The position numbers and the translations under genes were made by a program. A stretch of 64,000 nucleotides of DNA, from the NCBI GenBank assembly GCA_017134395.1, contig CP070993.1, forward strand, positions 320,210-384,209, given 5' to 3'. Positions 4,414 through 55,665 of this stretch are shown here, piece after piece (position 1 is the first letter of the stretch; every line of letters starts with the position of its first letter). The notes below the pieces were generated by a model that saw only the letters and a program-made list of their open reading frames with translations, was not told where the DNA came from and ran no database searches. The stretch is from Candidatus Kaiserbacteria bacterium. GTDB lineage: Bacteria; Patescibacteriota; Minisyncoccia; Phycocordibacterales; UBA2100.

Positions 4414-4668
4414 TTAGCGACTTAAGTATGAAATTCCCAAACCTGGCTGTGGTACCAGTTCGTACTCTGAACCTCGAGGGAAAAAGATAAATGCAACAAT
4501 AACCGCAAGGACAGCAACAGCTATAAGCACCACGGTCGCCTGCTTCGTATCTTTAGCAAGACCTAATTTCATTACAAGCTTAGTAGGCCATGATTGTCGA
4601 GGACCACGCGACCCTTTATTAAATCCTGGCATCGGTTCATCAAATTGTACTCGATTGTTATTTACCAT
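4414..4668 (-). CDS. small hypothetical membrane protein (single predicted TM helix)
   Basis: 84-aa ORF packed between rpiB and rpe, with the hydrophobic stretch VVLIAVAVLAVIVAFIFF. No recognisable family. Confidence 0.3.
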   Translation of the reverse strand: MVNNNRVQFDEPMPGFNKGSRGPRQSWPTKLVMKLGLAKDTKQATVVLIAVAVLAVIVAFIFFPRGSEYELVPQPGLGISYLSR

Positions 4669-4704
4669 ACTGTAATACTATCATTGGTAAAAAGAGCACA
4701 AAAA

Positions 4705-5157
4705 TTATGTGTGGAGAACCTTCTCAATTTTTTCTATCCTTCGAACATGACGTTCGTCGTGAGTAAATTCTGTCTCAAGCCATATTTTGACTGCTTCTTG
4801 TGCGTGAGTAATATCCACGAAACGCGCTCCTATACTTAATACATTCGCATCATTATGTTCTCTTGATGCCGTCAAAACTCCCGTACCTCCCCCGTACCAG
4901 ACAACTGCACGTACCCCCTTAAATCGATTTGCAACGATTGCTTCACCCTGCCCTGAACCTCCAAAAATAATCGCTTTAGAGTCTGGATGCTGAGAAACTC
5001 TCTCTGCCGCACGTGCTATGTACTCTGGATAATCATCACCGCCTACATATTCGTGTGCACCTAAATCTTCTACTTCGTATCCAAGATCACTAACAAACAC
5101 AAGGAGTTGTTCTTTTAACTCAAAGCCTGCATGGTCAGTCGCAAAAAAAACTTTCAT
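4705..5157 (-). CDS. rpiB: ribose-5-phosphate isomerase B (RpiB/LacAB family)
   Basis: 150 aa. MKVFFATDHAGFELKE...IIFGGSGQGEAIVANRFKGVRAV is the RpiB signature. Confidence 0.85.
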   Translation of the reverse strand: MKVFFATDHAGFELKEQLLVFVSDLGYEVEDLGAHEYVGGDDYPEYIARAAERVSQHPDSKAIIFGGSGQGEAIVANRFKGVRAVVWYGGGTGVLTASREHNDANVLSIGARFVDITHAQEAVKIWLETEFTHDERHVRRIEKIEKVLHT

Positions 5158-6351: not shown

Positions 6352-7002
6352 ATGTTCTTCCATGTACTGAATCGTGGTGTAGAAAAACGACCTATAGTCC
6401 ACGATGATATTGACCGAATACGTTTTGTTCATGACCTTTTCATATTCAACAACAAGTGCTCTGTAGACCCAAATCATAGGCTTAAAGAAAATCCATTTGG
6501 TGACCAAGGTAGAGACCCTTTAGTGCATATACATGCGTGGTGTCTTATGGATAATCACTATCACCTACTTCTCTCTCCTGTCGATAATGATGTCGCAAAT
6601 ATTTCGCTTTTCATGAAAAAGTTAAATATGGGGTATGCAAAGTACTTTAATGAAAAATATGAGCGCTCGGGCTACCTGTGGCAAGGAAAGTACAAAAAGA
6701 TAGAAATAGAAAGAGATGCACATTTTCTCTATATCCCTTTCTATATCCATCTTAACCCGCTTGACTACACCCATCCAAATTGGCGCAACGGATCTATTAA
6801 GAATCTAAAAAAGATGTTGTCTGATTTATCTTCATATCGCTGGAGTAGTTACCTAGATTATATGGGCACCAAAAATTTTCCTTCTGTTATAGAAGAACAA
6901 ACATTACATGAAGTGCTCGGTTCGTCATCTAGTCAGAAAAAGCAAATTGCTCAAATTGTTACACAAGCAGATGTAGCTACTCTCTCGAACAACTTCGAAT
7001 AA
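6352..7002 (+). CDS. HuH-family Y1 transposase, REP-associated tyrosine transposase (RAYT) / IS200-like TnpA family
   Basis: 216 aa. The N-terminus is FHVLNRG.EKRPIV, the HuH motif is CLMDNHYHLLLSP, and the C-terminal region is GYAKYFNEKYERSGYLWQGKYK (catalytic-Tyr WQ..Y region). It is flanked on both sides by the family-A palindromes. Confidence 0.65.
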   Translation: MFFHVLNRGVEKRPIVHDDIDRIRFVHDLFIFNNKCSVDPNHRLKENPFGDQGRDPLVHIHAWCLMDNHYHLLLSPVDNDVANISLFMKKLNMGYAKYFNEKYERSGYLWQGKYKKIEIERDAHFLYIPFYIHLNPLDYTHPNWRNGSIKNLKKMLSDLSSYRWSSYLDYMGTKNFPSVIEEQTLHEVLGSSSSQKKQIAQIVTQADVATLSNNFE

Positions 7003-7095: not shown

Positions 7096-7135
7096 TTAAT
7101 TAAATTTAATTTAATTTAATCTTATCTTATCTTAT
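7096..7135. repeat. pentanucleotide tandem repeats (TTAAT/TAAAT)x5 followed by (CTTAT)x3
   Basis: ttaat taaat ttaat ttaat ttaat cttat cttat cttat. The last CTTAT unit overlaps the stop codon (7132..7134) and last codon of the giant gene. Confidence 0.7.
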
Positions 7136-10100
7136 ATTGTTGAGTCGGTAGTGGTTGCTGTTTCTTCTGCAGGTGTGTCTGTTGCCACTGGTTCAATGAC
7201 TTCGTCCACTGTGTCCTCTACCACTTCCTCTTCTACTGTTTCTTCTACTACAGGTTCTGTTGTGTCGTTTACGACTGGTTCAGTACTTGTGGCTGTAGTG
7301 TCTTCTACAACTTCTTCTTCTACGATAACGGGGTCTGTACTGGTTGCTGTGTCGTCTTCAATGACTACGGCAGGAGTTGAAGTGGCTGTGTCTTCTACTA
7401 CTGGTTCTTCAGTTGGTGTTCCTGTTCCCACTATCACGGTGCGTTCGATTGTTGCTGTTTGTTCGTTGGTGTCTGTAGCACTGTAGGTAATGGTGTGGGT
7501 GGCATCTGTGGTGGTGTCTATATCTATAGTGGTGACTGCTTCACCGTTGAGGGTGAGTGTGATGCTTAAGTCGTTACCGTCTGCGTCTTGTGCGGTGATA
7601 CCGAGGTCGCTGTAGTTAGCGTTAAGAGCAATTTCAGCGGGGTTGGTTCCGATGAGGGTGAGGGTTGGTGGGGTTGAAGTAGTTGTTGATGTAGCTTCTG
7701 TTTGAGTGGTTGCTGAAGCGACACCGGCGAGCTGTGCCTCTACCGCTACGAGTCGCTCTTCAAGTGCCGCAATTTGTATGTCCTTAGAACTCTGCCAGTC
7801 AATGAGTTCGGCGATCCTTTTTGTATTCTCCTGCACAATCACCCACAATTCTTTAATTGCCTGTATTAAATACAAAGGTAAGTCAGAAAGGTTAGTATCA
7901 AAATATTCTGTTCCATTAATAGTTGTTGTGCCTACCATTTCAGGGAACGTAACCTTTAATTCTTGTGCAATGAAACCAGAAATACGGCGACTTCGTGTTT
8001 CTTCATCATATCCAGTCAATTCGTTATAGTTATAAGTTACTGGACGTAATTCACTAATTCTTTCGAGGGTAGTAGTATCCTCTGTCGATAACTCGGTAAT
8101 GTTTTCCTTTAGGCGTCGATCGGAATAGTTCGTCCATGCAGTATACCCATTTGCTGCAGGCTGGCCGTTTAATTGAAGTTTATACGTTGGGTTTGTTACA
8201 CCAATACCGACTTCGCCAGCGGGGTCGATAACTATTGCATCATTAGTTATACCACTACCGTAACTATTTGAAGTTCCAAAATGCAATTCCGTTCCAGAAG
8301 GAGTTATCTTTGCTGCTATTCTTGCTAAAGGTACAGCGCTAGATCCAGACGCACCAGCAAAATCAATACTATTGAAATAATTTGCTGTATATGGACTACT
8401 TATTCTTAATACACCATCACTGGTACCAGTAAAAGATGAGATAGATGTTCCTTCTACATGCAATTTCGTGTCGGGAGTATCAATACCAATACCGACGTTG
8501 CCACCTTCAAGAATACGCATGCGTTCGGTTAGTGAACCTGCTGAAGGAGTAGTTGAGAATGTTAAATACCCTTGGTAGTTTGATGAAGCAGTACTTCCTA
8601 CACCCATAGTTATGCTTGAAAGGTCTTGGCGAGCCACTGTACCGGTTGTTGTGATGGTATTTTTAAGAACGGGACTCACACCAGAAACGGCAAAGTTAAC
8701 GGTTGAGTCATTAGAACCAAGGTTAACTGAGAGCTTTGATTCTGGCGTTGTGGTGCCGATACCGACGTTGCCAAGTAGATAGTTGTTTCCTGTACCATCT
8801 ATGGAAAGAGCACCATCTAATTGTAAGTCACCAGCGCGAGATACACTTCCGACAACTGTTGCAGCACCATCTCCAAATTTTATCCCTCCACCAGTAGAGC
8901 CTTCGTCCCAGTTTAAATACACACTTCCCCCTGCGGTAATTGGGTTTATGACGGTATTTACATTGTCTGTCAGTCGAAGTACGTGTGTACCGGCGTCCGC
9001 GATAATGCTTCCGGTAACGTTTATATTTCCTTGTACATCAAGTACTTGCGATGGTGTCGTCGTACCAATACCCACACTACCTTGTACTGCCAAACCATTG
9101 TCGAGCTCGGTTGTGTAGTATGAATCTCCAATTGAAACTCCACCTATTACACCTACGTGACTTCTATCGTATACGCCACTACCTGGGTCGAGCACAATAC
9201 CCGTAGCAAAAGACACTTGTAGTTGTTGATACGTATTTGCTGTCCATGCACCTGCAGTTCTGTAAATTCCGTACCCGGAAGCAGTATGCCAGTAAATACC
9301 TTGACTTCCATCAGTCGTGACATTGTCACCAAAGGTTATTTGCCCTGTCGTTGATAAGTCTAAGTCTCTCGCGGGAGTTGCCGTACCAATACCGACGTTA
9401 TCAGTCCCCGTTGCTAAGTACACATCAGTACCGCCATCAGTCCACCCACCGCCAGATGATGCCGAGAAGTCAGTCCATGCGCCTGCGTTGTTTTTATATT
9501 GAATAGTTCCTGCGTTGTCGCGGAAACCGTAGCCAGTAGTGCCCGTGGTATCGCCCCAGTTGATGTAGCTTGAGGCTGTAAGACCGATGTTGCCTGCAAC
9601 ATCGAGTTTGTGGTCTGGTGTTGAATCTCCAATACCGACGTTGCCACCAACAAGATGCATAATATTTGCCGCGCCTGCACTGAAGAACAGACGGTCAGTA
9701 GCATGATCGTATTGAATACGTCCTATGTCATTATCACTCGGATCACCAAACAAAACCGAACCAACACTTGATGCAGTATTGAAAATGGTCAAGCCAGTAT
9801 TGCCGCTACTTTCAAGAACAAGTTCGTCGCCATTTGAAATTGGACTTCCTACCGCACCAGCGGAACTGTCATAAATCCATACTTTTGCTGAAGGCGTCGT
9901 GGTGCCGATGCCGACGTTGCCTGCATCGTTTACATACAGTTCAGGGTTTCCTGAGATAGTGCCTCCTCCCCATATACCAATACCACCATTTGAACCATCG
10001 CCGTAACCACCAATCGCTCCAGAATATACATCTGATGATCCTTGGAAGGAAATAATCTGCCCGCTCCCTGCCACGGAAACATTCTGTGTATTAGTGTCGA

Positions 10101-13100
10101 GAGTTAGTAGATTTACTATAGAACCATTACTTCCATTTTCTACCAATTGCAATTTCGTAGCTGGGGTGGTGGTTCCGATACCGACGTTGCCGGTGTTGGT
10201 AAAGGTAAGTACATCACCTGCACCATCAATAAAGAGTCGCCCATCATCACCAGTAGGGTTATATAACCAAGCATTACTACCTGAGCTATCACGTGGTCCT
10301 GCAAGGAAGCCTGCACGCGAATCATTACCCGAACGTACAACACCGATAACATCAAGTTTTTCAGTTGGTGTCGTGGTTCCGATGCCGACGTTGCCTGCGG
10401 TGTAGCTGATGTCGGGGCTGTTGTGTGTCCAGAGACCGTTACCGCCGTCAATGCGGGAGCCGGTGAAAGAAGTATATGCACTCCAGCCATTTATATCTTT
10501 ATTGCTTGCACTCGATTGATGGACGTAGACTTCGAAATAATCTGTTGTTCCATTTGCATCTACTACAACACTCACTTGATTCGTTCTAAAAGTACCTGTC
10601 GAAGTCTTATAGTCACTGCTATATAATGCCCCATTCTTGTAAATTGCCATATATGTCTGGTCACTATCTGAGACACTCTCGAATCTTGTTTTTGTTGTTA
10701 ACAAATATTTACCAGCAACCGTTGGGGTAAATCTATCACTCGCAAAATCAGAGTTAGTATCAAAGTGCTCTGTTGTCCAAGCCACCTTTGTCCATGTATT
10801 TCCTGGGATGCTTTGAGCCACATTGTTTCGATGTACCGAGAAGGATGGTGAAATACCGTCCCCTGCGGTGGCAAAGGAGAGGTTGCCACTGGCGTCAGTG
10901 GTGAGGAACTGTCCTGCGGTACCGTCAGCAGTTGGGAGGGTGAAGGTGGTGTTGCTGGTGATGGCGTCTGGTGCCTTCAGAGCAACATAGTTGTCACCGT
11001 TAGCTTCGAGCTCTTCAAAGCGTACTTCACCGGTGTTGCCTGCGGAGGTGCCGAATGGATTAAGTGAAAGTGCTGATGCTGATTCATCAAAGAATAGCGG
11101 TGCGTCACTTGTTGTTCCTCCAATGGCAAGGTCGTCGGTGAGTGAGGTGAGGTAGGTGGTGGTGCCACCGTCGGTGAAGAGTGCGGCACCACTGCCTACT
11201 GCACTACCATTCCAGTACAAACTACCACTAACGTTGTAGAGTGCGTTAACGGTAGTTGCAGGAGTCGTTGAGGCAAGTGAGAGAGCGCCATTAACTGAGA
11301 GTTTGGTGGTGGGGGTGGTGGTGCCGATACCGACGTTGCCTGAGGAGTTGATAGTCAAGTCGCTACCTGAACCAGTTCCAAATTGCACGGCGTATTCTCC
11401 ACGTATAACCATAGCGTTCGTAAGTGCATCGCTAAAGACTTGACCTGGTGTCGCGTAACCAGAATACCCAACCAAAGCGTTTGAATTGTTTTTATATGTT
11501 ATGTACCCAGCAAGATCTGAACCTTGGAAAATAGCGAGGTCAGGGTTGTTTTTATAAAGATGTAATAGCGCTTGAGGGGATGTGGTGCCGATACCGACGT
11601 TGCCTGTACTGTCAATCACCAAATCTGAAGCTGAGTTCGTCCATAAATGTAGGTCACCAGTTGTTTGGTGAACACCTATATTCGCTTCTTGATCTCCGGC
11701 ATTATCGAAGAACGCTAGACCTGGGTAACCACCAGGTGTACCGATTCTTACTGCGTCACCACTACTTATTCCCGTTTTTACACTTAGACCCCAACCAGCC
11801 AACGTAGATGTGCCAATTCCCACATTCCCATTGCTGACATCTGCGAACAACGCTGGTGTACTTGAGGTGCCGACGCGGAAGTCACCCCAGACGTCCAGTT
11901 TAGATGCGGGGGAAGAGGTGCCGATACCAACGTTGCCTGATGAAAGTGTTGATTGAGTACCATCAAGACCTGTACCGTAAATGAGATTTCCAATGACTAA
12001 TTGATTATTGGCTGTTGCGCTCGGTACAGCCACGTTGTAACCAATAGAAATGTTATTTGCACCACTTGTTATTTGGTTTTGTGCTCCAGATAAAGTTGCT
12101 GCACCAATAATAGTGTTATTTGAACCAGTAGTAACTCCATATCCTGATTTGAATCCGAGGAAGGTGTTGTAGTTGCTGCTTGTTGCTGCTGAATACCCAG
12201 ACTGTGTACCAACGTACGTTCCTCCTTCGTTATAATAGTTACTTAAACCTGCTGCTGCTGCTGCACCGACAGCTACTACACTATCTGGTGATGTATTGAA
12301 TCTTAAGGTTCCAATTGCATTACTTAAACCACCAATAGCAACGTTTGAAGAACCGTCAATATTTCCGATACCAGTATAGTATCCAAGAAACACATTTGCG
12401 TTACCAGTAGTGTTGTTAAGCCCTGCATTTGCTCCAAGAAATGAATTGGCAAACCCAGTGGTGTTGTTCATTCCTGATTGTACTCCAATAGCAATACTGC
12501 TCCCACCAATATATGCTGCTCCGCCCGCAGTTGAACTTCGCAGTGCGCGATACCCGATAGCTACGTTGCTTGCCGTTGATGTGGCATTCTCGAGCGCCTG
12601 ATAACCAACCGCAACATTCTTGGTTCCAGTTGTAAGTGAGGAAAGAGCACTCGTTCCTAAAGCGGTGTTTTCATTTCCTGTATGTGTTGTATTGCCAGTG
12701 TTACCAACAAATAGTGAACCCGTAGTTGTGCTTGCTTGCAATATTGTGTTTCCCTCTAACTTGTAACCGTTGCTAGTGTTTATGTAACCAAGTACATCTA
12801 GTTTGGAGCTAGGATTAGTAGTGCCGATGCCGACGTTGCCTGCGCTTGTGACAACCATTTGGTCATTAACACCATTTGTTCTGAATGAGAATCCGTTGCC
12901 AACGTTATCGTAAATTATCCTACCCATAACAGCACTGTCTGTGTCACCAAAATCTAAGAATGATTTTGTAGTAGGTGAGCTAATTATAGAAACTATAGTG
13001 TCACCGCTTCTTTGGAATGAAGCCACCGTTTGTGCAGAAGCAGTTATTGCTGTTCCACTTTGGACGACCTGCAGATTAGTACTTGGTGAGTCTGTTCCGA

Positions 13101-16100
13101 TACCGACGTTGCCTTGATTCATTATTACGTCTCCATCTGACTGAACAAGCAGACTGTCTTGCCCGGCTCCAGCTTGAACAGTAAACGGATAAACGCTTCC
13201 AGCTGTCAAATCTCTAAGGCTAAAATTACCGCCCAGAGAATGAACAAACCATTCCTGATTAGATGCATCACTTTCTTTAAACACTATACCTGGATCATTT
13301 CGCGTAATTCTAAGTTTTTGGTTTGAATCTAATCCATAAGTTGATGCGTCATTTATTGTCAGGGCTGTGCCAACTTCGAGTAATGCACCGCTACCAGATA
13401 TATCTAACTTTGAAGACGGACTCGCTGTACCTATACCCACATTCCCACTACTTACATCAGTAAACAATGCAGGAGTGCTTGAGGTTCCGACACGTAAGTC
13501 GCCCCAGACGTCGAGGGTTGATGCAGGTGAAGTGGTGCCGATACCGACGTTGCCTGTACTTCCGTCTAGCATCAGTAGCCCAGGATAAGACGTTGATGGA
13601 CTGAATGCTATATCACTAGAACCAGAAGCTCCTCTAACAACAAGATTTTTTGTATTTAAATCTGAAAGTCCGGTGTCTCCTACTTCAAAAGAGAAACTTT
13701 GCTGATTACCCGATGTAGTTGAGCCACCAAACAACTGTACTAGACTTGAATCTAAACCTATGCCGTCATAACCAAATTTGCTTACACCAGCAACATGCAG
13801 TAGTGAGTCAGGTGTTGTGGTGCCAATACCGACGTTGCCTGTATTACCCTCCACGAAGAGCATACCGCTACCAACATTTAAGTCAGTGTCGGAATCAAGC
13901 GTAGCGTTAATATCACTCGTGCCTCCAGGCTGGAAAACAATGTTACCTGGCGGCTGTAAGGTAGCAGTACCATCTAATTTCACTTCAGCATTTGCTCCAA
14001 CTATCGTTTGGTTGCCAGAATTGTATCCAATTAGGTTAACCGAGGTTCCAGTCGTCAATCTCGATTTCAAGTATTGATTATTATCTATCTGGATATTACC
14101 TCCCACAACTTCGAGTTTTTGTTCAGGAGTTGTTGTACCGATACCGACGTTGCCTGAAGTATTATTGATATTTAGATTACCAGCATCAAGTGCATTGTTC
14201 CCTCCAATAGATGTATAGCCATCCTCGGCCAAAAGATAGCTTGTTGTATCGTCATCAGAAATAGTGATTACTGCATTGTTATCAGAACTATTAAACAGTG
14301 CCACCGCATTGTAAGTATTAGAGTAGACTCTTAGAGGATTAGCTACTGCCGTTTCGTAAATAGAAAGTGTTGCGTCTGGGGTTGTGGTACCAATACCGAC
14401 GTTGCCGGAGGAATCAATGGTTAGCCTCTCTGTTGCAGTAGTCCAAAGTGATAAATCGTTTGCATTATTATCGTATACGATTCGTCCCATTGTTTGACTT
14501 CCGCTATCACCAAAAAAGATACTAGTGTCTGATGACGTTCCACCCACAATAGATATTCCGGCTGGTCCAATGCCTTCAACAACCAACTCATCCGCACTAC
14601 TAGATACAGCCGGAGCTCCTGATACTGCGCTTGATATGTGCAACTTCCCCAGTGGCGTCGTAGTACCAATACCGACGTTACCCGTACTGGTAATTCGCAG
14701 GCGTTCTGCACGATTAGAACTCGTAATAGTACCTGTGGTGAACGCGAGGCCGTATGCTGCTCCTGTTGCACTGTCTGAGATTGCGCTGATTTCAGCTCCG
14801 ATACCATCTGCATAGGTACCTGTGTAGCTCGCATCATTTGTGATGAAGTTAAGAGAACCTATTCCATCTCCTGTGGTGCGCGCTCCTTGTGTAGAAATGG
14901 AGAGTGCTGTTCCTGTGAGAATTGAGTCTGGATTGGTGGTGCCGATACCAATATTTCCACTCTCATTAACCGTTAAGCGGTCTTGTAGTGTTCCACCTGA
15001 ATCTGAAACCTGTAGCTTGAAATCGCCACCACTACGTTGGAATGCTGCCTTATTTGTAGAGTTATAGGTTATTTGAAATTGTGGCTGGTCTGTCGATAAT
15101 ATCTCTAGGGCAGTGTCTGGACTTGCTGTCCCAATACCAACATTACCTGAGCTTCCTTCGACGAATAATGCATTGACTTCACCAACTCCTTCTACTCTAA
15201 AATCAATGTCTGCTCCGAGTTCGTTGAAAGTGTATGAAGTGGCTAATGCTCTTGAGACCTCTACACCGCCAGCATAGGTTCGTATACCATTAAGGCTATC
15301 CTGGATATAAAAACCTTCTCCGGTAGCTAATGCGTTATTACCTATCCATCCACCATTTACGTCACCTGCAATTATTATACCTTCATGTACTGAATCTGAA
15401 TCTTTAAATCGAGCGAGAACACCGCCGTTTTCGTTATGAACATCAAGTTTGTATGAAGCAGAAGTTGTACCAATACTTACGTTGCCATTTGGGAAAAATA
15501 CAGTACCAACATTATTCGCAGCTCCCATTACTTGAGTAAGATTGGTTCCTGAGTAAATACCAAATCCATTATTTGTATCCCAATTGTGAGATATCACGGA
15601 ACGATAGCTGCTAGGACTGCTAGCATTTGTGAGCTTTACACTAGGATCACTATTGTAAATATGCAATGTCTCTTCTGGCGTCGTGGTACCTATACCAATG
15701 TTGCCAGAGAAGAAACCGTCAATGGTGTACAAATCTTGCCATTGCTTAGATGCAGTACCCAGATCATTTGCATCATTAAAATATGGAGAGAAATCGCTTG
15801 TTAAAAATTGATACTCCCAATTATCATTTTGTCTAACAAATATCTGCCCGTCTCGTATATCAAAGAGATCGCCGCTATCTTTACCGAAGTTACCACCATT
15901 AACACCATCGTATGCATAGATAGTACCCGTAGCTGCACCAAGATCTCCTCCGACATTTAATCCCGTTGCTATAATTACGTCGCCTTCTACATCCAACTTC
16001 GCTCCTGGACCTGTCGTTCCGATACCTACATTACCTTCTATAATCGCACCGTTAGATGGAGCGACAACATTGTTATAGCCAGAACCTACTCGTAATGCTC

Positions 16101-19100
16101 CCTGCACATCAAGTTTGTTAGAAGGAGTTGGATCACCAATACCAATCATATTCGCACTTGAGTCAATGTAGAGCGTATTGTTGTCGAAATCCAAATCAGC
16201 ACTGTTGGTGTCGAGATCGAAGGTGGTGGTGGCGTCTACGGTGAGTGCATCCTTGAACTCAGTGAAGTCGAGTGTGTCTGCGTCGATGAGACTTGCATCA
16301 ATAGTGGTGGTTGAGACGACACCTGAGCTGTTGGTGGTGAGGATGCCTCCGGTGAGTGCAGCAAACTGTACAGAGCCGGTGGTGGTGAGTTGGTTGGCAG
16401 GGGTGGTGGTGCCGATGCCGATGTTGCCTGTGTTTGTTATTCTGAATCTCTCTGCACCACCAGTTTGAACGTTGAAGTCTCCTCCAGTTGCTACTAAATT
16501 AACGAGTCCAGTTCCTGTTTTTAACTGCAATGCAGTAAATCCTCCGTCAGTTTCTATTACAGCAGGTGTACCGGCTGATGCTTGGTACACGATAAGTTTT
16601 TGACTTGGGCTCGCCGTCCCAATACCTACATTCCCACTACTTACATCGGTAAACAACGCTGGTGTGCTTGAAGTACCTACACGTAGGTCACCCCAGACGT
16701 CGAGTTTTGATGCTGGCGTCGTTGTGCCGATTCCGACATTTCCTGCACCTGTTACATATAAATCATCGCTGTTAACGGCAAATACGCCATCTGTGGCGTC
16801 ATGAATAAATACCGTTCCTCCGTCAGTATTCAAATACAAAGAACTGGCAACGCCGGACCCAATTGCTTGAATTTCATTATTATCTATAGCGATAAAATCA
16901 GTATTTGAAGCACCAACCCTTAATGCTCCACCTCCCGAGGAACTGACATCGGTTGAATCCCATACTACAAGTTTTGCCTCTGGTGTTGAAGTACCGATAC
17001 CGACGTTGCCTGAAGTATCTATAGATAGTCTTTCAGTATTCCCAACCATCAAATCTAGTTGATGAGATGATTGTGTACCAAATTTTGCTGCTTGAGGTGT
17101 TCCTGAATCAAACCATCCAGATAATTTTGTCGCTGCATCGTCACCATAAATGGTAACGGCTCCACCATAAGTACCTCCTGCGATATCGAGATTGGTTCTG
17201 AAGTTCATGTTTCCAGGTGTACTAGTACCTATACCGACGTTGCCGGCGCTCGTTATTCTTAACCTCTCAGATGTATCGGATGCACCGGCTGATCCAGTGT
17301 GTAAAGAAACATAATCTTGTCTGAAAACTGCATTTAGAGCAGAGCTAGTGGCTGTTTGATTATTATTTCCCAATTTAGACGAATAAATTCTTATATCGTC
17401 TCCATAGTTTCCCGTATATGTGGAGCCTATCCAAGCTCTGGATGCATTTGTTCCTACCCCCCCTCGTGGAAAGCGAATCCAGCCGCCTTCCTTCCCGTAA
17501 GCTCCACCAGCTGCAATGTCAAAAATATTTGTGGAGTCATCTGCACCTCCAACCAATATACCAAAGGGAGTTCCTCCTGTTATTGTTGTATTCTCACTGT
17601 AGAATCCTGTGGTTGCTAATACCTCCCCAACTACTGCAAGGTTTGCTACAGGACTAGTAGTGCCGATGCCGACGTTGCCTGAATCTGTTATCCGCACCGC
17701 TTCAGTTGCTCCATCTGGGAAAAATCCTATTTTCTTTGAAGCTGTACCTGCATATATATTTACGTCACCAGTAACACTAGTTCCTGAATGCCCGATAATT
17801 AAGTTTTCCGTTGCATCATATCCGATAAGATTTCTATCAAAACCACTAGCTAAACTCCCCTTTAAGAATTGATTATTATCTAAAAGGATATCGCCTTCAC
17901 TAACATGTAATTTTTCAGCGGGTGTAGTAGTTCCAATACCGACGTTGCCAGAGGCATCAATCCTTAACGCCTCGCTACCACTTGTGGAAAAAGCAAGCGA
18001 ATCATTTGCGTGTTCATAATCTATGAGACCTGGACTTCCACTTGTGTCAGAGAAAGTAAGTACTGAATTCCCCGTATCTCCTGCAACATTGGCTTTAATA
18101 TCAACCTGTGTATATCCAGATCCAGAAGTTCTTTCAAACGTAGAGACTAGTTGATCTGCACTTGTTACATGCAGTTTCCCAGAGGGCGTAGTAGTACCAA
18201 TACCTACGTTGCCAGTGTTATCAAGTGTAAGTCGAGGTGTTGATGTCAAATCAGTACCATCAGTAATACGGAATGTATCGTCTACATTGTAATATCCTAC
18301 TGAGTAATCTGTACCACTTCCGAATCGTAGTGGTGTGTTGTTATTTACACGCAGGAATCCACTACCCCACTGCAAAAGATCTGCGCCATTGCTTTTTATA
18401 TAACCATTGACTAAAGCGTTTACATTCAAATATCCTGTCGCATCAACATAAAATTCGCCATAACGTGTTGAACGGTCATCGTACCCGTATACTCGCAAAC
18501 CGTTGTCATCTGCGTTTTGGGCAATCGTCAGACCGAGTGCTGGAGTGGCAGTGTTGATACCAACATTCCCACTACTCACATCGGTAAACAATGTAGGAGT
18601 GCTTGAAGTACCTACACGTAGATCACCCCAGACGTCGAGTGCTGATGCGGGTGAAGTGGTGCCGATACCTACGTTGCCTGAAGTATCTATTGTTAATCTT
18701 GCACCAGCATTTGTTATTAATTGAAGAGGATGACTAGTCTGTGTTCCAATCTGCCCAGCTGACGCTTGTGCCTGTACTTTTACCTTTGCACCTCCTGAGC
18801 GCTCTGCAAGAATATCTGCATTTCCTGTATCAAACACATGTAAAGTACCGTCTGGAGTAGTCGTTCCAATACCGACGTTACCGCCTGTAAGGCGAATGTA
18901 CTCCGTACCACGGTTACTTATTGTCGTATCAACACCAAACGCATAGACTGATCCGAAGTTAATGGTTGAACCATCGTACCCTACAAATCCATAGTTATTA
19001 GTTGCACTTCCTGTTCCAAATTCAATTCCTGCAGGACGTCCTGTTGAGTTTGAGTGTACTCCAACAAGCACTGTTGTTCCTGGGTTTCGTACATCCAGCT

Positions 19101-22100
19101 TATATTCTGAATCTGGTGTTGCTTGAATACCTACACTCCCATTAGAATCAATAATAAACGGAGTTGTATCGCTTGCTGAATCGTTCACAACAAAACTGTT
19201 GCCCGTACCTGTGTTAGTGATGGAGAGTACTTCAGTACCATCTGCTGCTATGTCAGTTGAAGCATCGAGTGCAAGCGCATCCTTAAATTCAGTGAAATCG
19301 AGCGTGTCGGCAGTAACATCAGCACCGTCAACGGTGGTGGTTGAGACAACACCTGAGCTGTTGGTGGTGAGGATGCCTCCGGTGAGTGCGCTAAGAGTAA
19401 GTGCTGATTCAAGTATGGTGTTGCCGGTGATACGTGCGGTGCCTGAGACATCTAGTTTGTATGATGGCGCAGCGTTTCCAAGACCTAACTGCCCAGTATT
19501 ATCAATATAAACAGTCTGAGTGTTATTGGAACCTCCTCCACGCAACTCTAACTTATGTGAATTAGAGTTCTCACCGATGTATGTATTTTGGTTACTAAAA
19601 TAGATATGAGAATTATCGGGACTCAACCCTATAGAGCCAGCAACATCGAGCGCATACGATGGGGTGCTGTCGCCAATCCCCACATTTCCACTACTCACAT
19701 CAGCAAACAATGCGGGAGTACTTGAGGTACCGACGCGTAGGTCGCCCCAGACGTCGAGTGCTGATGCGGGTGAAGTAGTGCCGATACCGACGTTGCCACC
19801 ATCTGCTATCACAATTCCGTCGCCAGCACCTTCACCCCATACATTGAGGTAACCAAAATTAGAGGCTTCGTTGTATCCGATAACAAGGGCGTCATCTGCA
19901 ATTGCGCTTTGTCCTATTGCTATGAAGTCAACATCGTTATCATCTGCATTAGTATTAAAGAAGCTTGCTATGTTTACCGTTCCACTTGAATCAGCTTCTA
20001 CATGCAATTTGGAGTTTGGCGAGGTGGTGCCAATACCGACGTTGCCTCCGGTTGATGGATTGATGTAAGTTTCTGCTCCTTCCAACCATAAATTTTTGTA
20101 AGAAGATGCGCCACGATCGTATGCCTGAACAAATCCATATCCGTTATATCCTAATTCGACTCCAGCACCGGAGGCTGTCATTGACGGCGCTCCAGTTGCA
20201 CGAAGATTTCCGGATACATCTAGAGTTGCCACAGGCGACGCCACCCCCACCCCAACTCTATTCGTTGAACTATCAATCACGAGAGTGTTTGCATCAAAGT
20301 TGAGATCAGCAGAGTTGGTGTCGAGGTCGAAGGTGGTGGTGGCGTCTACGGTGAGTGCATCTTTGAATTCAGTGAAGTCGAGTGTGTCTGCGTCGATGAC
20401 ACTTGCGTCGATAGTGGTGGTTGAGACGACACCTGAGCTGTTGGTGGTGAGGATGCCTCCGGTGAGTGCGCTGAGAGTAAGTGCTGATTCAAGTATGGTG
20501 TTGCCGGTGATACGTGCGGTGCCTGCTACGGTGAGTTTTTCAGCGGGAGTGGTGGTGCCGATACCGACGTTACCTAAATTATTTATCACAATCCCTTTAC
20601 TTGAACCATCAAAACCGTCTCTAGTAATTTTTAAGTTGTCTTCAGAATAATCAACCCCAATGAAACCGTATCTGGGTGTGCCATCAGCATCAGATGCCAT
20701 TCTGATGAATGAGTTGTCTGTATCATTTGTACTCAACCCAATATCTGCAATTCCGGTTGTTGAAAGTACATCTAATTTCCTACCTGGACTACCTGTACCA
20801 ATCCCAACCCTGTTCGTTGAACTGTCAATGTACAAGGTGTTTGAGTCGAAGTTTAAGTCAGCGGAGTTGGTGTCGAGATCGAAAGTTGTGGTGGTATCTA
20901 CCACTAGTGAGTCTGAGAGCTGTGCGAAGTTGAGTGAGTCGTTAACGATGTCTAAGGTGACGGCTGCTGATTCAGTACCAGAATTAGAAACCGTAAAGAA
21001 AGCGTTGCCTGCGTCTGCAAGCGTTGCGAGATAATTACCTGTTGTGTGTGTACCGAGTGTGATGAGGTTGTTAAGTGTGGTGGTTCCTGTGCCTCCGTTG
21101 GTTACAGGAAGAACTCCAGTGACCTCAGTGGTGAGATCAACCGAGGTACCAAGTGTTGTTTCGAGTGATCCTGAATTGAGAGTAAGTCCAGTACCAGTGA
21201 AGTCGGTGATTGTTTCTGAGTTGGTGCGGAATCCACCAGAGGCTCGTGTGACACCAACAACGTCGAGTGGATATGATGGAGTTACTCCTATACCAAAATT
21301 ACCAGATGAATCGAAACGAGCCACCTCTGTATTTGACGTACTAAACAATATCGCGCCAGCTTCCCTGTTGATAATAGCTAGATTTAGTCCGTTTCCTTGA
21401 ATAAGGCTACCGTCAGCAGCCAAAGTGCCTGTTGTTCCGTTAGTAAGTTTTAATTCGGGAAATGAAGTTGCATTGATGTGTAGCCCTGTTCCTCCACCAG
21501 CAAGAGCAGGTGCCGCGGTACCAATACCCACATTTCCTGCTATTTCTATGTCCCCATCACTTTGTGCTACCAACAATTCTGTACCTGCAGAATTTTCCAA
21601 ACGGATTGAACCACCACTTACTATTGGCCTGATATTTGAAAGCCACGCTATGTCAGCACCGTCATTCAATTGTAAATCTCCATCGATATGCAACTTCGAT
21701 CCAGGTGTTGTGGTACCAATACCGACGTTGCCTGCTCCATTAATGATCATTTGTGTATCGAGAGTTCCGTTCGAAGTGGAAAATCGCAAATCGCCGTACT
21801 CTGCACCAGATTCATTTTCAGAACTTATACGAGCACCTATATAATTTTCAGGACTTGCATCATTATTATCCCAATTCTGAAAATCTAAACGTCCATAATC
21901 TGCTCCCGCACTTTGCTTTGCGCCTCCAATGGTAACGGTGCGTTGTACATCAGCACTTCCCCCTCTATCTGCAACTATGTTCCCACCGTAAATATGTAGT
22001 TTCTCACTTGGTGAAGTAGTACCGATACCGATGTTGCCATCCACACCAACAGTCAGTACGCGACTACCACTGAAATCATCAGCTACAAAAATAGGTGCAG

Positions 22101-25044: not shown

Positions 25045-25502
25045 AAAGTGTTTGATGACTTGTTCGGAACTCCGTTATATCTATATAATACTAGGTATTT
25101 CGGCACTCTCCCAACTCTCGCTTGGGGATAAAGTCTGCGCCTTTTTTTGACAAAAAGGACTCTGAAAACAGTCAAAAACCTTCTACTAAAAATAATCAAT
25201 ATCTGGCAATCTCAATTTTTATGCATAATCAAAGTTTCCCAGATACTTTTTTATCTTGAAGAACCTTCCTAACTCACTGCAACTATTTTTATTACTCGAT
25301 AAGCACGATAACCACCTCCTAACCCTAACAACCCAGGAAAGTACTCAGTGACTTCACAGTCCCTTGTAAGCAGCCAAAGATTACCATTGTCGAGATCTTT
25401 AAGGGACAACGATGTGTTCTTCTTAGCGTCTAATTGTTCTTAGAAATATAAACAAAGCGGTTTGTGGGCAGCATTTGTATAGAATTATATAAAATGGCTC
25501 TA

Positions 25503-25561
25503 AATCTCGGCTAGTGCAGGTATACAGTGCCAATCTCGGATATTATCTCGCTATATCTCGG
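25503..25561. promoter_or_regulatory. cluster of four direct ATCTCG[G/C] repeats in the 807-bp region upstream of the giant gene
   Basis: atctcgg at 25503, 25533 and 25555, and atctcgc at 25545. Spacing is irregular. The sequence between and around them is AT-rich, with TATAAT-like hexamers nearby. Confidence 0.3.
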
Positions 25562-25680
25562 TTATCCGAGGTTCATATTTGCACATCTTATCTTGCACTT
25601 TGCTGCCCTTTAGGCGTTTAAAACTAAATAATTCATACTACCATGCAGGAAAAGAGAGCTTATAAGTCCAGTAATCTGCG

Positions 25681-25717
25681 AGTACCAATTCAGACATGGG
25701 ATGTCTGAATTGGTACT
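25681..25717. repeat. 37-nt perfect palindrome agtaccaattcagacat-ggg-atgtctgaattggtact (family A-related core GACAT-NNN-ATGTC)
   Basis: 17-bp perfect arms. It lies between the stub-paralog stop and the giant gene start. Confidence 0.6.
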
Positions 25718-25769
25718 ATCCTGTATAACTCACCCCTCCCACACACATAATGCCTACATACCATCAAAA

Positions 25770-25797
25770 ATATATGGACATCGGATGTTCATATATG
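25770..25797. repeat. REP-like hairpin palindrome, family A copy 4 (tatatggacat-cgg-atgttcatata). It doubles as the likely intrinsic terminator of the upstream minus-strand gene.
   Basis: One arm mismatch relative to copies 1-3. On the minus-strand transcript the hairpin is followed by UUUUUGAUGG. It lies 55 nt downstream of the stop of gene 25852..26904. Confidence 0.55.
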
Positions 25798-25851
25798 TGA
25801 ATTTTTTAGGAAACGTAAGAGGAGAAAGCTAAAAAAGCTATTATTGTAGTT

Positions 25852-26904
25852 CTATTCAGAAGAGTAGTTGAATTCTGATCCAGGTAGTATGTCTCCGTAC
25901 TTATCTTGCATCATTTCGATGAAAGTATTGTCTTCAAATAAGTTGCTCACAGCATCAAGACCAGAGAGACCAAACAGGTATAGATATGCTCCAGTAGAGA
26001 TAAGAATGAGCGCTAAAATTAGCATGCCTATAACTCCAACAATTGGAAATGAACGCTTTGCGGGTTTACTCTGAATGAAGTAGCTTTCCTCTCGTTCCCT
26101 TTTTTGTACCCCGCCTTCCCGAGATGGTATATTTCTAGGCGTGGTTTGAGTAGTTATCGGTGGAACTGCTCTAGGAGTGGAGACAGGACGAATATCGGGG
26201 TTCATTTGCTTAATTGGAGGGCGTTCACTTAATATATCACCAGACGCATAGGTTTGGGCTTCATTAAATGCAGTTTCTTTTTTTACAGAAGGAATTTCTG
26301 GATTACTTTCAGCTACGTAGCGTACGTTGAAATTGATGTCTCCAGGATCAATATCAGTTTGGATATTTACAGCAACTCCAGTAGCATCCTTTCCAACTGC
26401 TCCCTTCTCAGTACTATAACCTTCAGTGCGTACACCACTGGACTGTGCCTGAACTTCAGCCAGTAGACCATCGTTGTGTTTTTTGTGAGCGATAAGTGAG
26501 TCCTTACCTACAAACCAACGGCGACCTACTTTTCGTGCTTCTAATTCACCACTTCTGGCAAGCTGACCAATATAATCTTGTGCGTAGCCAGTAACAGCAG
26601 CAGCGCGAGATGTTGCGATGTACTCTGTGCCGTCATACTTGAATGTGTCGTCACGAACATTCCCTACCTTCATACCAAGTGCGCTCTTGCCTTGCTCATT
26701 TTTATTTTTTGTATCAGCTTCAACACCATTTTCTTGGTACCGCTTCAACCCATTTTCATCGACATACCAATGCCCAGACACTCGTCGACACTCAATTTTA
26801 TCTTCCCTGCAAAGCTGGCCAATATAGTCCTTCGAATAACCACTCAGCTCTGAAGCACGAGTAGTTGATATTAAAGTGTCATCACCGATAGTAACGTCTT
26901 CCAT
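25852..26904 (-). CDS. membrane protein with two tandem excisionase-type HTH-like modules, a low-complexity linker and a C-terminal TM anchor. It is a 'stub' paralog of the giant protein N-terminus.
   Basis: 350 aa. The modules are RASELSGYSKDYIGQLCREDKIECRRVSGHWYV and SRAAAVTGYAQDYIGQLARSGELEARKVGRRWFV. Both match the giant protein's N-terminal module and the HTH_17 pattern (A..G.s...I..l.R.G.l...rvGrrW.v). The TM helix is IVGVIGMLILALILISTGAYLYLFGL near the C-terminus. Confidence 0.6.
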   Translation of the reverse strand: MEDVTIGDDTLISTTRASELSGYSKDYIGQLCREDKIECRRVSGHWYVDENGLKRYQENGVEADTKNKNEQGKSALGMKVGNVRDDTFKYDGTEYIATSRAAAVTGYAQDYIGQLARSGELEARKVGRRWFVGKDSLIAHKKHNDGLLAEVQAQSSGVRTEGYSTEKGAVGKDATGVAVNIQTDIDPGDINFNVRYVAESNPEIPSVKKETAFNEAQTYASGDILSERPPIKQMNPDIRPVSTPRAVPPITTQTTPRNIPSREGGVQKREREESYFIQSKPAKRSFPIVGVIGMLILALILISTGAYLYLFGLSGLDAVSNLFEDNTFIEMMQDKYGDILPGSEFNYSSE

Positions 26905-53770: not shown

Positions 53771-53833
53771 ACTTTTGGAATTCAGCGTGCCCGGAGTACT
53801 GCTTTTTAAGTAACCGGACTACTTAATTTATGG

Positions 53834-55570: not shown

Positions 55571-55627
55571 AACGATAAGTATATCGTACTTCCTTTGTGC
55601 ATATATAGTATTAATCCCCGCCGTGCT

Positions 55628-55665
55628 ACGCACGGCGGGGACTTTTGTGGTAGTTTTCACGTATC
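55628..55665. terminator. GC-rich hairpin (ccccgccgtgc-tac-gcacggcgggg) followed by a T-rich tract. It is a candidate intrinsic terminator or attenuator between two minus-strand genes.
   Basis: 11-bp perfect GC stem with a 3-nt loop. On the plus strand it is followed by acttttgtggtagttttc. Both neighbouring genes are on the minus strand, where the U-tract is weak, so the strand assignment is uncertain. Confidence 0.35.

What the first reader, a model, noticed from the sequence alone, without database searches (positions are those of the whole stretch)
11800..20550. Multiple near-identical intragenic DNA repeats (substrates for recombinational length or domain variation)
At least five copies of a ~125-nt segment encoding ..NVGIGTTSPAS.LDVWGDLRVGTSSTPALF.DVSSGNVGIGT.. 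lie at about 11810, 13435, 16625, 18565 and 19680, roughly 85-90% identical at the DNA level. At least three copies of a ~200-nt segment lie at about 16215..16420, 19265..19470 and 20295..20530, more than 90% identical (encoding ..GGILTTNSSGVVSTTTIDAS.IDADTLDFTEFKDAL..). The artefactual plus-strand ORFs at 16178 and 20285 translate to almost identical peptides, which confirms the repeats. Direct repeats 1-4 kb apart inside one gene can mediate RecA-dependent deletions and duplications, giving fibre-length or antigenic variation.
Basis: seen in the sequence. Interest (0 to 1): 0.55.

Follow-up and report, generated by a model that had tools for sequence, protein, structure and literature searches.

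The report
Shuffled repeat modules in giant fibre gene
The repeats are real in-frame copies of two protein modules inside a 5,970-residue, phage-tail-fibre-like surface fibre gene of an ultrasmall marine bacterium (Candidatus Kaiserbacteria); one set is old and kept alike by selection, while the other was copied recently between positions, and relatives show this gene changing length and module content by recombination.

Summary
Both repeat families exist at the stated coordinates, but identities were overstated. Family A has five 126-nt copies, 76-88% identical. Family B has three copies: 95%, 89% and 84% over 119-175 nt, and all three share only a 56-59-nt core.

They lie in frame in one ORF (7132..25044, minus strand). 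This is a chromosomal gene of a Candidatus Kaiserbacteria genome. It encodes an N-terminally membrane-anchored fibre with about 45 'GNVGIGTTTPxxKL' capping-loop modules and a C-terminal Peptidase_S74 chaperone. The closest solved relatives are the Bdellovibrio MAT fibres.

- **Family A is old.** dS is about 1.0 and dN/dS about 0.05, and it is 79-100% conserved in homologues. The longest exact run is 32 nt, so these copies are poor recombination substrates.
- **Family B is young and mosaic.** dS is 0.13-0.25. B1 matches B2 at its 5' end and B3 at its 3' end, which implies recent gene conversion or recombination.

In a sister species (about 82% nt identity) I found:
- an allele-specific conversion tract of at least 43 nt between dispersed repeats;
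- a clean 156-nt in-frame indel;
- one hybrid module (B1 head, B2 tail), so the window carries exactly the 1080-nt B1-B2 interval that the sister lacks.

I saw no within-species length variation at A or B, and RecA dependence is untested. This is an ordinary kind of feature, documented here in some detail.

The parts
7132..25044 (-). Giant ORF, 5,970 aa, GTG start: a membrane-anchored, tail-fibre-like surface fibre protein
   Evidence: Uninterrupted 17.9-kb ORF. PHROG tail-fibre families score E 1e-55 to 1e-72. Pfam finds S74 and an Ig-like domain at the C-terminus. dN/dS against the sister ortholog is 0.12 over codons 2-400. Synteny is conserved in two other genomes.
19672..19797 (-). Family A copy A1 (aa 1750-1791): GNVGIGTTSPASALDVWGDLRVGTSSTPALFADVSSGNVGIG
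18553..18678 (-). Family A copy A2 (aa 2123-2164)
   Evidence: Shares the longest family-A exact run with A1 (32 nt).
16618..16743 (-). Family A copy A3 (aa 2768-2809)
   Evidence: Its peptide is 42/42 identical to a module in the TARA protein P0005.
13429..13554 (-). Family A copy A4 (aa 3831-3872)
11812..11937 (-). Family A copy A5 (aa 4370-4411), the most diverged copy
20290..20526 (-). Family B copy B1 (aa 1507-1585), a mosaic. The 5' 112 nt match B2 with 2 mismatches. The 3' 178 nt match B3 with 6 mismatches.
19270..19446 (-). Family B copy B2 (aa 1867-1925), followed by its own 'B2 body' down to about 18852
   Evidence: The body is 85% nt identical to the sister species.
16180..16359 (-). 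Family B copy B3 (aa 2896-2955)
20798..20940 (-). Older B0 module sharing the tail '...TTTFDLDTNSADLNFD.NTLYIDSS' with B1 and B3
   Evidence: An orthologous B0 is present in the sister species and in L001.
20411..20469 (-). Longest exact direct repeat, 59 nt; the partner copy is at 16301-16359
19450..20529 (-). 1080-nt interval (one B1-to-B2 period, containing A1) present here but absent from the sister species, which has one hybrid B module
   Evidence: Blastn shows L010 17344-17565 matching 20575-20354 and L010 17390-17987 matching 19449-18852. Identity in 30-nt windows switches from B1-like to B2-like within the codons for TLDFTEFKDAL.
8176..22038 (-). Array of about 45 capping-loop motifs ([VI]G[IV]G-T-x-x-P-x-x-x-L), median spacing 90 aa. 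Families A and B are sub-modules within it.
   Evidence: PDB sequence matches to Bdellovibrio fibre Bd2133 (8OND, E 1e-12) and to 8OJN, 8OML, 8ON4. The motif is described in PMC10769870.
22435..23757 (-). T/A/N-rich short-repeat region (aa about 430-870). Indels relative to the sister species, and between sister alleles, map here.
7933..8124 (-). Peptidase_S74 intramolecular chaperone domain, with the catalytic motif SDRRLK starting at Ser5641 (8122-8124)
   Evidence: Pfam PF13884, 53.2 bits against a cut-off of 22. Motif located. MyRF ICA match 7DC3.
7429..7662 (-). Bact_surface_Ig-like domain downstream of S74, followed by a 98-aa acidic T/E/V tail
24424..24504 (-). Single predicted transmembrane helix (aa about 181-207), the only strongly hydrophobic stretch in the protein
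   Evidence: Kyte-Doolittle scan
24874..25038 (-). N-terminal HTH_17-like module (aa 3-57)
   Evidence: BLASTP E 1e-13 and 5e-12 to the two HTH_17-like repeats of the neighbouring ORF 25855-26904

Best explanation
The repeats are coding modules of one giant surface-fibre gene in a Candidatus Kaiserbacteria (CPR/Patescibacteria) chromosome.

How the protein is built:
- An N-terminal HTH-like domain and one membrane helix anchor it.
- About 5,400 extracellular residues follow. Most are beta-helix-type modules, each marked by a 'GNVGIGTTTPxxKL' capping-loop motif.
- A C-terminal Peptidase_S74 chaperone is expected, by analogy, to drive trimerisation and then cut itself off at Ser5641.
- By analogy with Bdellovibrio MAT fibres and phage tail fibres, I infer a long trimeric adhesin, roughly 0.2 um, that contacts other cells.

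What the two repeat families are:
- Family A is a 42-residue double capping-loop unit that recurs five times. The copies are old, about as old as the split from the sister species. Strong purifying selection on the peptide keeps them alike, and recent copying does not.
- Family B is a different module that has recently been homogenised in patches between three positions by intragenic gene conversion or recombination. This produced a mosaic: B1 is the B2 head plus the B3 tail.

The same processes operate in this gene in relatives: short conversion tracts, in-frame indels between short direct repeats, and loss or gain of the whole B1-B2 interval. Module number, order and fibre length therefore differ between lineages.

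Shown: the repeats, their ages, the mosaicism, the family assignment, and the conversion tract, the indel and the 1080-nt difference in the sister species.
Inferred: trimer formation, autocleavage, the adhesive role, and the enzymology of the recombination.
For: Gene and organism:
- ORF and translation.
- Housekeeping context.
- Exact matches of neighbouring proteins to a 687,746-bp Candidatus Kaiserbacteria contig.
- Conserved synteny in L001 and L004-L019.

Family assignment:
- Pfam S74 and Ig-like domains and PHROG tail-fibre families.
- PDB matches to Bdellovibrio MAT fibres and MyRF.
- Capping-loop motif and S74 SDxxxK motif as described in PMC10769870.
- SDRRLK at aa 5641.
- 401 representative proteins at E<=1e-30, mostly 1.5-7.8 kaa with 10-64 motif copies.

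Family A is old and constrained:
- aa identity is 35-40 of 42, but only 59% of same-residue codons are identical.
- 177 of 225 mismatches are at codon position 3.
- Mean dN is 0.054 and mean dS 1.0, against an orthologous dS of 1.04.
- The module is 79-100% identical in L001 (3 copies), P0005 (2), P0040 and P0008.

Family B is young and mosaic:
- 37 of 41 and 16 of 16 same-residue codons are identical.
- dS is 0.13-0.25.
- Identity borders are sharp.
- nt identity is 91-95%, against 69-73% expected from the peptide alone.

Recombination in relatives:
- Conversion tract.
- 156-nt indel with a 17-nt flanking repeat, and N-gaps at the same site in two further assemblies.
- An allelic 385-nt cassette with 11% divergence that starts at the module-B hinge.
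- Hybrid B module and the 1080-nt difference.
- Very different module content after aa 1000.
Against: - No length variant at the A or B repeats was seen within one species. All related contigs end inside the gene, and the window's own species has no second genome in the collections searched.
- The polarity of the 1080-nt difference is unresolved. It could be a deletion in the sister or a gain here. The outgroup L001 has window-like spacing but no B1-type module.
- The 156-nt indel could in principle be an assembly artefact: one contig carries it and five lack it.
- The window gene itself comes from a metagenome assembly, so a chimeric B1 cannot be formally excluded. However, the exact repeats (59 nt or less) are shorter than typical reads, and the sister species independently carries the B1-type head.
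- Family A identity (82%) still exceeds the 70% expected from peptide and codon usage, so some old homogenisation is possible.
- Structure prediction of the A/B region as a monomer was uninformative (pLDDT 55.8). The beta-helix fold therefore rests on sequence matches to solved fibres.
Confidence: 0.72

Rival explanations
1. Pure selection, with no recombination role. All the repeats are simply conserved structural modules of a repetitive fibre, and their DNA similarity is a by-product of peptide conservation and common descent.
For: This fits family A well. dN/dS is about 0.05 and dS about 1.0, and the module is conserved in distant homologues. About 70% nt identity is expected from the peptide alone.
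Against: It fails for family B. Synonymous sites are nearly identical (dS 0.13-0.25 against 1.04 for the species split). The borders between about 97% and about 50% identity are sharp, and the three copies differ in which partner they match. It also does not explain the allele-specific conversion tract or the hybrid B module in the sister species.
Confidence: 0.15
2. An active contingency system: frequent RecA-mediated deletions and duplications between the A and B repeats produce fibre-length or antigenic variants within a population.
For: The repeats are in frame and direct. The sister population shows an indel and conversion polymorphisms in the same gene. There are large module-content differences between sister species.
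Against: The exact homology is short: 59 nt at most for B and 32 nt at most for A. The A copies have diverged to dS of about 1, which argues against frequent exchange. Among six sister-species contigs, five are identical to within 0-2 nt over up to 5.6 kb. The observed indel used only 17 nt of homology. No variant at A or B was seen.
Confidence: 0.1
3. Diversity-generating retroelement, prophage tail-fibre cassette, or assembly artefact. On this view the similar segments are template and variable repeats, or phage DNA, or collapsed or chimeric assembly.
For: CPR genomes are known to carry DGRs (my own background knowledge). The protein hits phage tail-fibre PHROGs. The genome is metagenome-derived.
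Against: No reverse transcriptase was found among the 45 ORFs of the window. Mismatches show no adenine bias and sit at third codon positions. The copies are in-frame coding modules, with no non-coding template. There is no phage DNA match. The flanks are housekeeping genes, syntenic in three species. Independent assemblies of the sister species reproduce the B-type modules.
Confidence: 0.03

Closest known systems
Bdellovibrio bacteriovorus MAT (mosaic adhesive trimer) fibre proteins, S74 subgroup (Caulton et al. 2024, PMC10769870; PDB 8OND, 8OJN, 8OML, 8ON4)
   Same: Both have the repeated capping-loop motif on beta-helix modules, with direct sequence matches (E 1e-12). Both have a C-terminal Peptidase_S74 domain with the SDxxxK motif and a mosaic, module-shuffled architecture. 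Both are chromosomal genes of a bacterium that lives by contacting other cells.
   Different: This protein is about six times longer (5,970 aa, about 45 motifs). Its N-terminus is an HTH_17-like domain plus a membrane helix, where MAT proteins have a signal peptide plus a conserved ~130-aa beta-rich domain. About 330 residues (Ig-like domain and acidic tail) follow the S74 cleavage site. The host is a CPR bacterium, not a predatory proteobacterium. Trimer formation and surface display are not shown here.
Phage tail fibres and tailspikes with an intramolecular chaperone (K1F endosialidase, T5 L-shaped tail fibre pb1) and eukaryotic MyRF
   Same: S74 chaperone/protease domain preceded by a 'VGI(G/N)T..P...L' motif (7DC3). 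PHROG tail-fibre families match.
   Different: The gene is not in a phage or prophage. It is membrane-anchored and far longer.
Size-variable repeat-containing surface proteins of bacteria, such as streptococcal alpha C and M proteins and Bap/Esp/Aap-type adhesins (from my own knowledge, not tested here)
   Same: In-frame intragenic DNA repeats whose recombination changes repeat number while keeping the protein functional.
   Different: Those have long, tandem, nearly identical repeats that change at high frequency. Here the repeats are short (59 nt exact at most), dispersed 1-4 kb apart and mostly diverged. Change is seen between alleles and species, not as rapid switching.

Membership tests
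Peptidase_S74 (intramolecular chaperone) fibre proteins | Match to Pfam PF13884 above the gathering score | tested here: met
   53.2 bits against a cut-off of 22, E 3.7e-14, aa 5641-5704
Peptidase_S74 (intramolecular chaperone) fibre proteins | Catalytic Ser-Lys motif S-D-x-x-x-K at the start of the domain | tested here: met
   SDRRLK at aa 5641-5646. Motif definition from PMC10769870.
Peptidase_S74 (intramolecular chaperone) fibre proteins | Autoproteolytic release of the chaperone after trimer assembly | not testable with these tools
   Needs expression of the C-terminal fragment with and without an S5641A substitution
Bdellovibrio-type MAT fibres | Repeated capping-loop motif V-G-(I)-G/N-x-x-x-P-x-x-x-L on beta-helix modules | tested here: met
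   44 strict and 45 relaxed motif copies. phmmer matches to Bd2133 8OND (E 1e-12) and to 8OJN, 8OML, 8ON4 align over this motif.
Bdellovibrio-type MAT fibres | Signal peptide followed by a conserved ~130-aa beta-rich N-terminal domain | tested here: not met
   The N-terminus is an HTH_17-like module followed by one internal TM helix at aa about 181-207. None of the PDB matches found is to that domain, though the N-terminal 1,000 aa were not themselves searched against PDB. I therefore describe the protein as working like a MAT fibre and do not file it as a member.
Bdellovibrio-type MAT fibres | Homotrimeric beta-helical fold | tested here: inconclusive
   The monomer AlphaFold2 model of aa 1484-1800 had pLDDT 55.8 and pTM 0.23. 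No multimer tool was available.
Diversity-generating retroelement target | Nearby reverse transcriptase, and a template/variable repeat pair differing at adenines | tested here: not met
   No RT domain in any ORF of at least 150 aa. Substitutions are of all types and 79% are at codon position 3.
Recombination-driven size-variable surface protein | In-frame direct DNA repeats within the gene | tested here: met
   All copy spacings are multiples of 3. Exact repeats reach 59 nt.
Recombination-driven size-variable surface protein | Alleles that differ by repeat-bounded indels or conversion tracts | tested here: met
   Seen in the sister-species orthologue, not in the window's own species: a 156-nt indel between 17-nt repeats, a conversion tract of at least 43 nt, and between species a 1080-nt difference bounded by B1 and B2.
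Recombination-driven size-variable surface protein | Length polymorphism at the flagged A and B repeats within one population | tested here: inconclusive
   Every related contig ends inside the gene, at aa 787-2110. No second genome of the window's species was found.

The most novel reading that the evidence does not exclude
CPR episymbionts such as this Kaiserbacterium may carry a single, cell-length (about 0.2 um), membrane-anchored fibre homologous to phage tail fibres. On this reading its modules are continually exchanged by intragenic and inter-allelic recombination. The gene would then act as a host-range diversification locus, comparable to tail-fibre mosaicism in phages and the MAT repertoire of Bdellovibrio, but packed into one giant gene. 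The cytoplasmic HTH-like N-terminus might couple fibre state to DNA binding or regulation.
Probability: 0.25. Interest if true: 0.6.

Novelty: new member of a known kind. Interest (0 to 1): 0.35.

Why it matters
How ultrasmall CPR bacteria recognise and hold on to partner cells is largely unknown. So far type IV pili are the main characterised factor (papers listed).

This locus shows that a Kaiserbacterium devotes 2.6% of its 688-kb genome to one tail-fibre-like, S74-capped fibre related to the prey-recognition fibres of Bdellovibrio. The gene is reshaped between close relatives by conversion tracts, in-frame indels and loss or gain of a whole module interval.

That gives concrete hypotheses that long-read metagenomics can test. 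It also gives a practical warning: short-read assemblies break in this gene, as every one of the nine sister-species contigs examined did.

As a sequence phenomenon, intragenic repeats in a giant adhesin gene are expected and not surprising.

Tried and rejected
- **Phage origin:** megablast of the gene against 50,697 phage records found nothing. The flanks are housekeeping genes.
- **DGR:** no reverse transcriptase and no adenine-biased mismatches.
- **RNA elements:** Rfam found only tRNA-Ile at 63661-63734.
- **NCBIfam:** no hit on three 1-kaa pieces.
- **Orthologues by peptide patterns in GTDB genomes:** none found. In JGI metagenomes, one 7.9-kb contig that ends after 495 aa.
- **The search for homologous proteins:** returned only proteins of about 900 aa or less, so no full-length alleles.
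- **L001 orthologue:** too diverged (27-30% in the repeat region) for collinear comparison, though useful for module A and B0/B2 conservation.
- **AlphaFold2 of aa 1484-1800 with a 19-sequence alignment:** pLDDT 55.8, uninformative, so I ran no fold search on it.
- **PDB sequence searches of aa 4085-4365 and 4600-4880:** nothing significant.
- **Upstream 808-nt intergenic region and the 3' end:** no notable ORF, promoter or terminator.
- **Concerted evolution of family A:** rejected. P0005 copies pair with specific window copies (42/42 and 40/42), so they do not cluster by genome.

Full report
**1. Observation**

The region lies inside one uninterrupted minus-strand ORF, 7132..25044 (5,970 aa, GTG start).

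Family A has five copies, at 11812-11937, 13429-13554, 16618-16743, 18553-18678 and 19672-19797.
- Each encodes GNVGIGT(T/S)SPASxLDVWGD(L/F)RVGTSSTP(A/T)LFxDVSxGNVGI(G/N).
- Pairwise nt identity over the 42 codons is 76-88%, mean 82%. This is lower than the 85-90% reported.

Family B has three copies.
- 16195-16359 vs 20305-20469 are 95.2% identical over 165 nt.
- 19274-19445 vs 20354-20525 are 88.6% identical over 175 nt.
- 16244-16359 vs 19274-19389 are 84% identical over 119 nt.
- The three share only a near-identical core of 56-59 nt.
- An older fourth relative, B0, lies at 20798-20940.

The plus-strand ORFs at 16178 and 20285 do translate to near-identical peptides. All spacings are multiples of three. 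The longest exact direct repeats are 59, 52, 44, 41 and 35 nt, all in family B. Family A reaches 32 nt at most.

Both families sit within a much larger array of about 45 copies of a 'GNVGIGTTTPxxKL' motif, spaced about 90 aa apart over 8176-22038.

**2. What the gene is**

The flanking genes are housekeeping genes: split transketolase, GAPDH, GatB, Obg, SecA, MurC-like ligase, and O-antigen and glycosyltransferase genes. Their proteins match exactly a 687,746-bp contig annotated as Candidatus Kaiserbacteria bacterium. There is no phage DNA match. The gene order SecA, Obg, GatB, HTH_17 protein, giant gene is conserved in two other genomes. It is therefore a chromosomal core gene of a CPR bacterium.

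Domain evidence:
- Pfam recognises only the C-terminus: Peptidase_S74 (aa 5641-5704, 53 bits against a cut-off of 22) and a bacterial surface Ig-like domain (aa 5795-5872).
- PHROGs match two tail-fibre families at E 1e-55 to 1e-72.
- The S74 catalytic motif is present as SDRRLK at aa 5641.
- The N-terminal 57 residues are homologous to the HTH_17-like repeats of the upstream neighbour.
- The only strongly hydrophobic stretch is at aa about 181-207. This suggests an N-in, C-out membrane anchor.

PDB sequence searches hit the Bdellovibrio fibre proteins Bd2133 (8OND, E 1e-12) and 8OJN, 8OML and 8ON4. For the S74 region they hit MyRF (7DC3). The alignments run over the GNVGIGT...P...L motif.

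Caulton et al. (PMC10769870) describe that motif as the 'capping loop' on the edges of trimeric beta-helix modules in their MAT (mosaic adhesive trimer) family, and in S74 proteins generally.

Scaling from their 370-aa, roughly 150-Å tip gives a fibre of the order of 0.2 um. This is my inference.

phmmer of the 43-aa module A against 1.84 billion representatives found 31,227 proteins at E<=1e-3 and 401 at E<=1e-30. Most of the best 150 are 1,500-7,800 aa with 10-64 motif copies. Giant capping-loop fibres are therefore a very large, mostly unnamed family.

**3. Family A is old and held by selection**

- Copies share 35-40 of 42 residues, but only 59% of same-residue codons are identical. Codon usage alone predicts 34%. 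The generic GNVGIGT motif across unrelated modules gives 55%.
- 177 of 225 mismatches are at third codon positions, with no base bias.
- Nei-Gojobori estimates give mean dN 0.054 and mean dS 1.0 (range 0.54-1.9). That equals the orthologous dS between this gene and its sister-species orthologue, 1.04.
- Peptide conservation plus codon usage alone predicts about 70% nt identity, and 82% is observed. Most of the DNA similarity is therefore a consequence of the conserved peptide. The rest reflects old common descent.
- The similarity stops sharply at the module borders.
- The same 42-residue unit occurs at 79-83% identity three times in the L001 orthologue, which is otherwise 27-30% identical. 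It occurs at 90-100% identity in TARA fragments P0005 (two copies) and P0040, and at 71% in P0008.
- Individual copies pair across organisms (A3 = P0005_148, 42/42), so they do not cluster by genome. This argues against concerted evolution.

Family A is thus a conserved double capping-loop unit: two motifs 36 aa apart, where the usual spacing is about 90 aa. It is a poor recombination substrate.

**4. Family B is young and mosaic**

- B1/B3 share 37 of 41 same-residue codons. B1/B2 share 16 of 16 in the leader.
- dS is 0.25 for B1-B3 and 0.13 for B1-B2 and B2-B3.
- nt identity is 91-95%, against 69-73% expected from the peptide.
- B1 matches B2 for 112 nt (2 mismatches), then drops to about 60%. 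It matches B3 for 178 nt (6 mismatches) starting 56 nt further in, and is unrelated before that.
- Sharp borders and different partners on the two sides are the signature of gene conversion or recombination. Gradual divergence would not produce them. These events post-date the species split.

**5. Population and sister-species evidence**

Through the SecA and HTH_17 neighbours I retrieved nine contigs of a sister species from TARA and other marine metagenomes. Its flanks are about 82% nt identical, SecA is 95% aa identical, and the giant N-terminal 1,000 aa are 68% identical. All nine contigs end inside the giant gene, at aa 787-2110.

Among them, five alleles are identical to within 0-2 nt. 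L011 differs in three clustered ways:

- (i) A clean in-frame 156-nt insertion in the T/A/N-rich region, bounded by a 17-nt exact direct repeat. Two other assemblies have N-gaps at exactly this site.
- (ii) Ten mismatches within nt 4575-4617. At each of them L011's copy 2 is identical to copy 1, which lies 1.1 kb upstream, whereas the other alleles keep a distinct copy 2. This is a gene-conversion tract of at least 43 nt.
- (iii) A 385-nt tract with 47 mostly third-position differences (11%). It starts immediately after the module-B hinge TLDFTEFKDAL, which is the point where contig L012 ends.

Between species, the sister has a single B module. Its first 60 nt are 93% identical to the window's B1 (50-66% to B2). 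Its last 90 nt are 86-90% identical to B2 (73% falling to 30% to B1). The switch falls in the TLDFTEFKDAL codons.

Correspondingly, a contiguous 644-nt sister segment maps to window 20575-20354 and then to 19449-18852. The window therefore has an extra 1080 nt, exactly the B1-B2 period, and this interval contains A1. That is the structure expected from unequal recombination between B1 and B2.

The direction of the event is not resolved. The outgroup L001 has window-like spacing between its B0 and B2-type modules but no B1-type module.

Beyond aa 1000 the two species differ greatly in module content. The sister has 2 strict motifs in aa 1-2110, and the window has 11.

**6. Verdict on the interpretation**

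The general idea is supported: intragenic repeats act as substrates for recombination that changes length and domain content. The support comes from family B and from the gene as a whole, through past conversion in the window, a live conversion polymorphism and an indel in the sister population, and a repeat-bounded 1080-nt difference between species.

It is not supported for family A. Frequent, RecA-dependent, within-population switching and 'antigenic variation' remain untested. The only clean indel used 17 nt of homology, which is more typical of slippage or short-homology events (my own background knowledge of minimal homology requirements).

**7. Rejected alternatives and dead ends**

- DGR: no reverse transcriptase and no adenine bias.
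- Prophage.
- Assembly artefact: unlikely, but it needs read mapping to exclude.
- Monomer AlphaFold2 model of aa 1484-1800: uninformative (pLDDT 55.8).

**8. Novelty and interest**

Repeats and mosaicism in giant adhesin and fibre genes are expected. The protein is a new, very large relative of known S74 and MAT-type fibres. It works like a MAT fibre but fails one family criterion: the N-terminal domain differs, so I do not file it as a member.

The interest is moderate to low for the repeats themselves. It is somewhat higher for what the locus suggests about partner recognition in CPR bacteria.

Noticed in passing
window 24424-25038 (aa 3-207 of the giant protein) and the neighbouring ORF 25855-26904 (-): The giant fibre begins with an HTH_17-like module that is homologous to two copies in the upstream 350-aa neighbour (E 1e-13 and 5e-12). 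About 120 charged residues and a single membrane helix follow. A cytoplasmic DNA-binding-like domain fused to a 5,700-aa extracellular fibre is odd. The sister species shows the same N-terminal sequence, and L001 keeps the HTH_17 neighbour and a homologous N-terminal ORF.
   Followed up: partly
window 7135-8124 (aa 5641-5970): 330 residues follow the S74 cleavage serine: the chaperone domain, a coiled-coil-like stretch, a Bact_surface_Ig-like domain (7429-7662) and a 98-aa T/E/V/D-rich acidic tail. From my own knowledge of phage S74 proteins, the chaperone is usually the extreme C-terminus. Here autocleavage would release an Ig-like domain as well.
   Followed up: partly
window about 10450-10750 (aa about 4765-4865): An internal globular domain within the fibre. 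A single-sequence AlphaFold2 model gives a beta-sandwich with pLDDT 71-86 over residues 108-206 of the model. Foldseek hits are weak: C1q/TNF-like heads (E about 2e-3, target TM about 0.45) and the lambda gpJ tip (E 4e-6, low TM). No PDB sequence match.
   Followed up: partly
window about 11965-12775 (aa about 4090-4360): A stretch of short 'N-x-x-A-(I/V/L)-G' type repeats, reminiscent of YadA-like adhesin heads. It interrupts the capping-loop array (301-aa gap between motifs). No Pfam or PDB hit. It is 46% identical to part of P0193. A similar region follows the B2 body directly in the sister species.
   Followed up: partly
window 22435-23757; sister loci L011 (gene nt 1740-1896), L015 11759-12061, L017 10519-10618: The T/A/N-rich N-terminal repeat region differs from the sister species by several repeat-sized indels. 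Within the sister population it carries a 156-nt in-frame indel flanked by the 17-nt repeat ACCAACGCAACCACCAC. Two other assemblies have scaffold gaps at exactly that site.
   Followed up: yes
L010-L019 (sister-species contigs): All nine contigs end inside the giant gene, at aa 787, 986, 1359 (four contigs), 1863, 2091 and 2110. In several cases the end lies at sequence repeated elsewhere in the gene, or where alleles diverge. Short-read assemblies systematically fragment this locus.
   Followed up: partly
L001 10001-21284: In the more distant 644-kb relative the orthologue is called as two ORFs, 427 aa and 4,245 aa, in different frames and separated by 89 nt. This could be a frameshift, a pseudogene or a sequencing error.
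   Followed up: no
window 6352-7002 (+) and 53078-53770 (-): Two diverged IS200-like Y1 transposase-family ORFs, 33% identical to each other. One lies 130 nt beyond the stop codon of the giant gene. At 216-230 aa they are longer than the roughly 140-150 aa I recall for IS200 TnpA (own knowledge), so they may be domesticated or REP-associated.
   Followed up: partly
window 25045-25851: An 808-nt gap without a convincing ORF lies between the giant gene and its HTH_17 neighbour. Only the proximal roughly 230 nt align with the sister species at the DNA level. Rfam finds nothing there.
   Followed up: partly
window 51757-55735 and 1195-1725: Other cell-surface or DNA-uptake genes are nearby: a ComEA-like HHH protein with PKD and lamin-tail domains, a TraG/VirD4-like coupling ATPase, and a type IV pilin-like protein with an N_methyl motif.
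   Followed up: no
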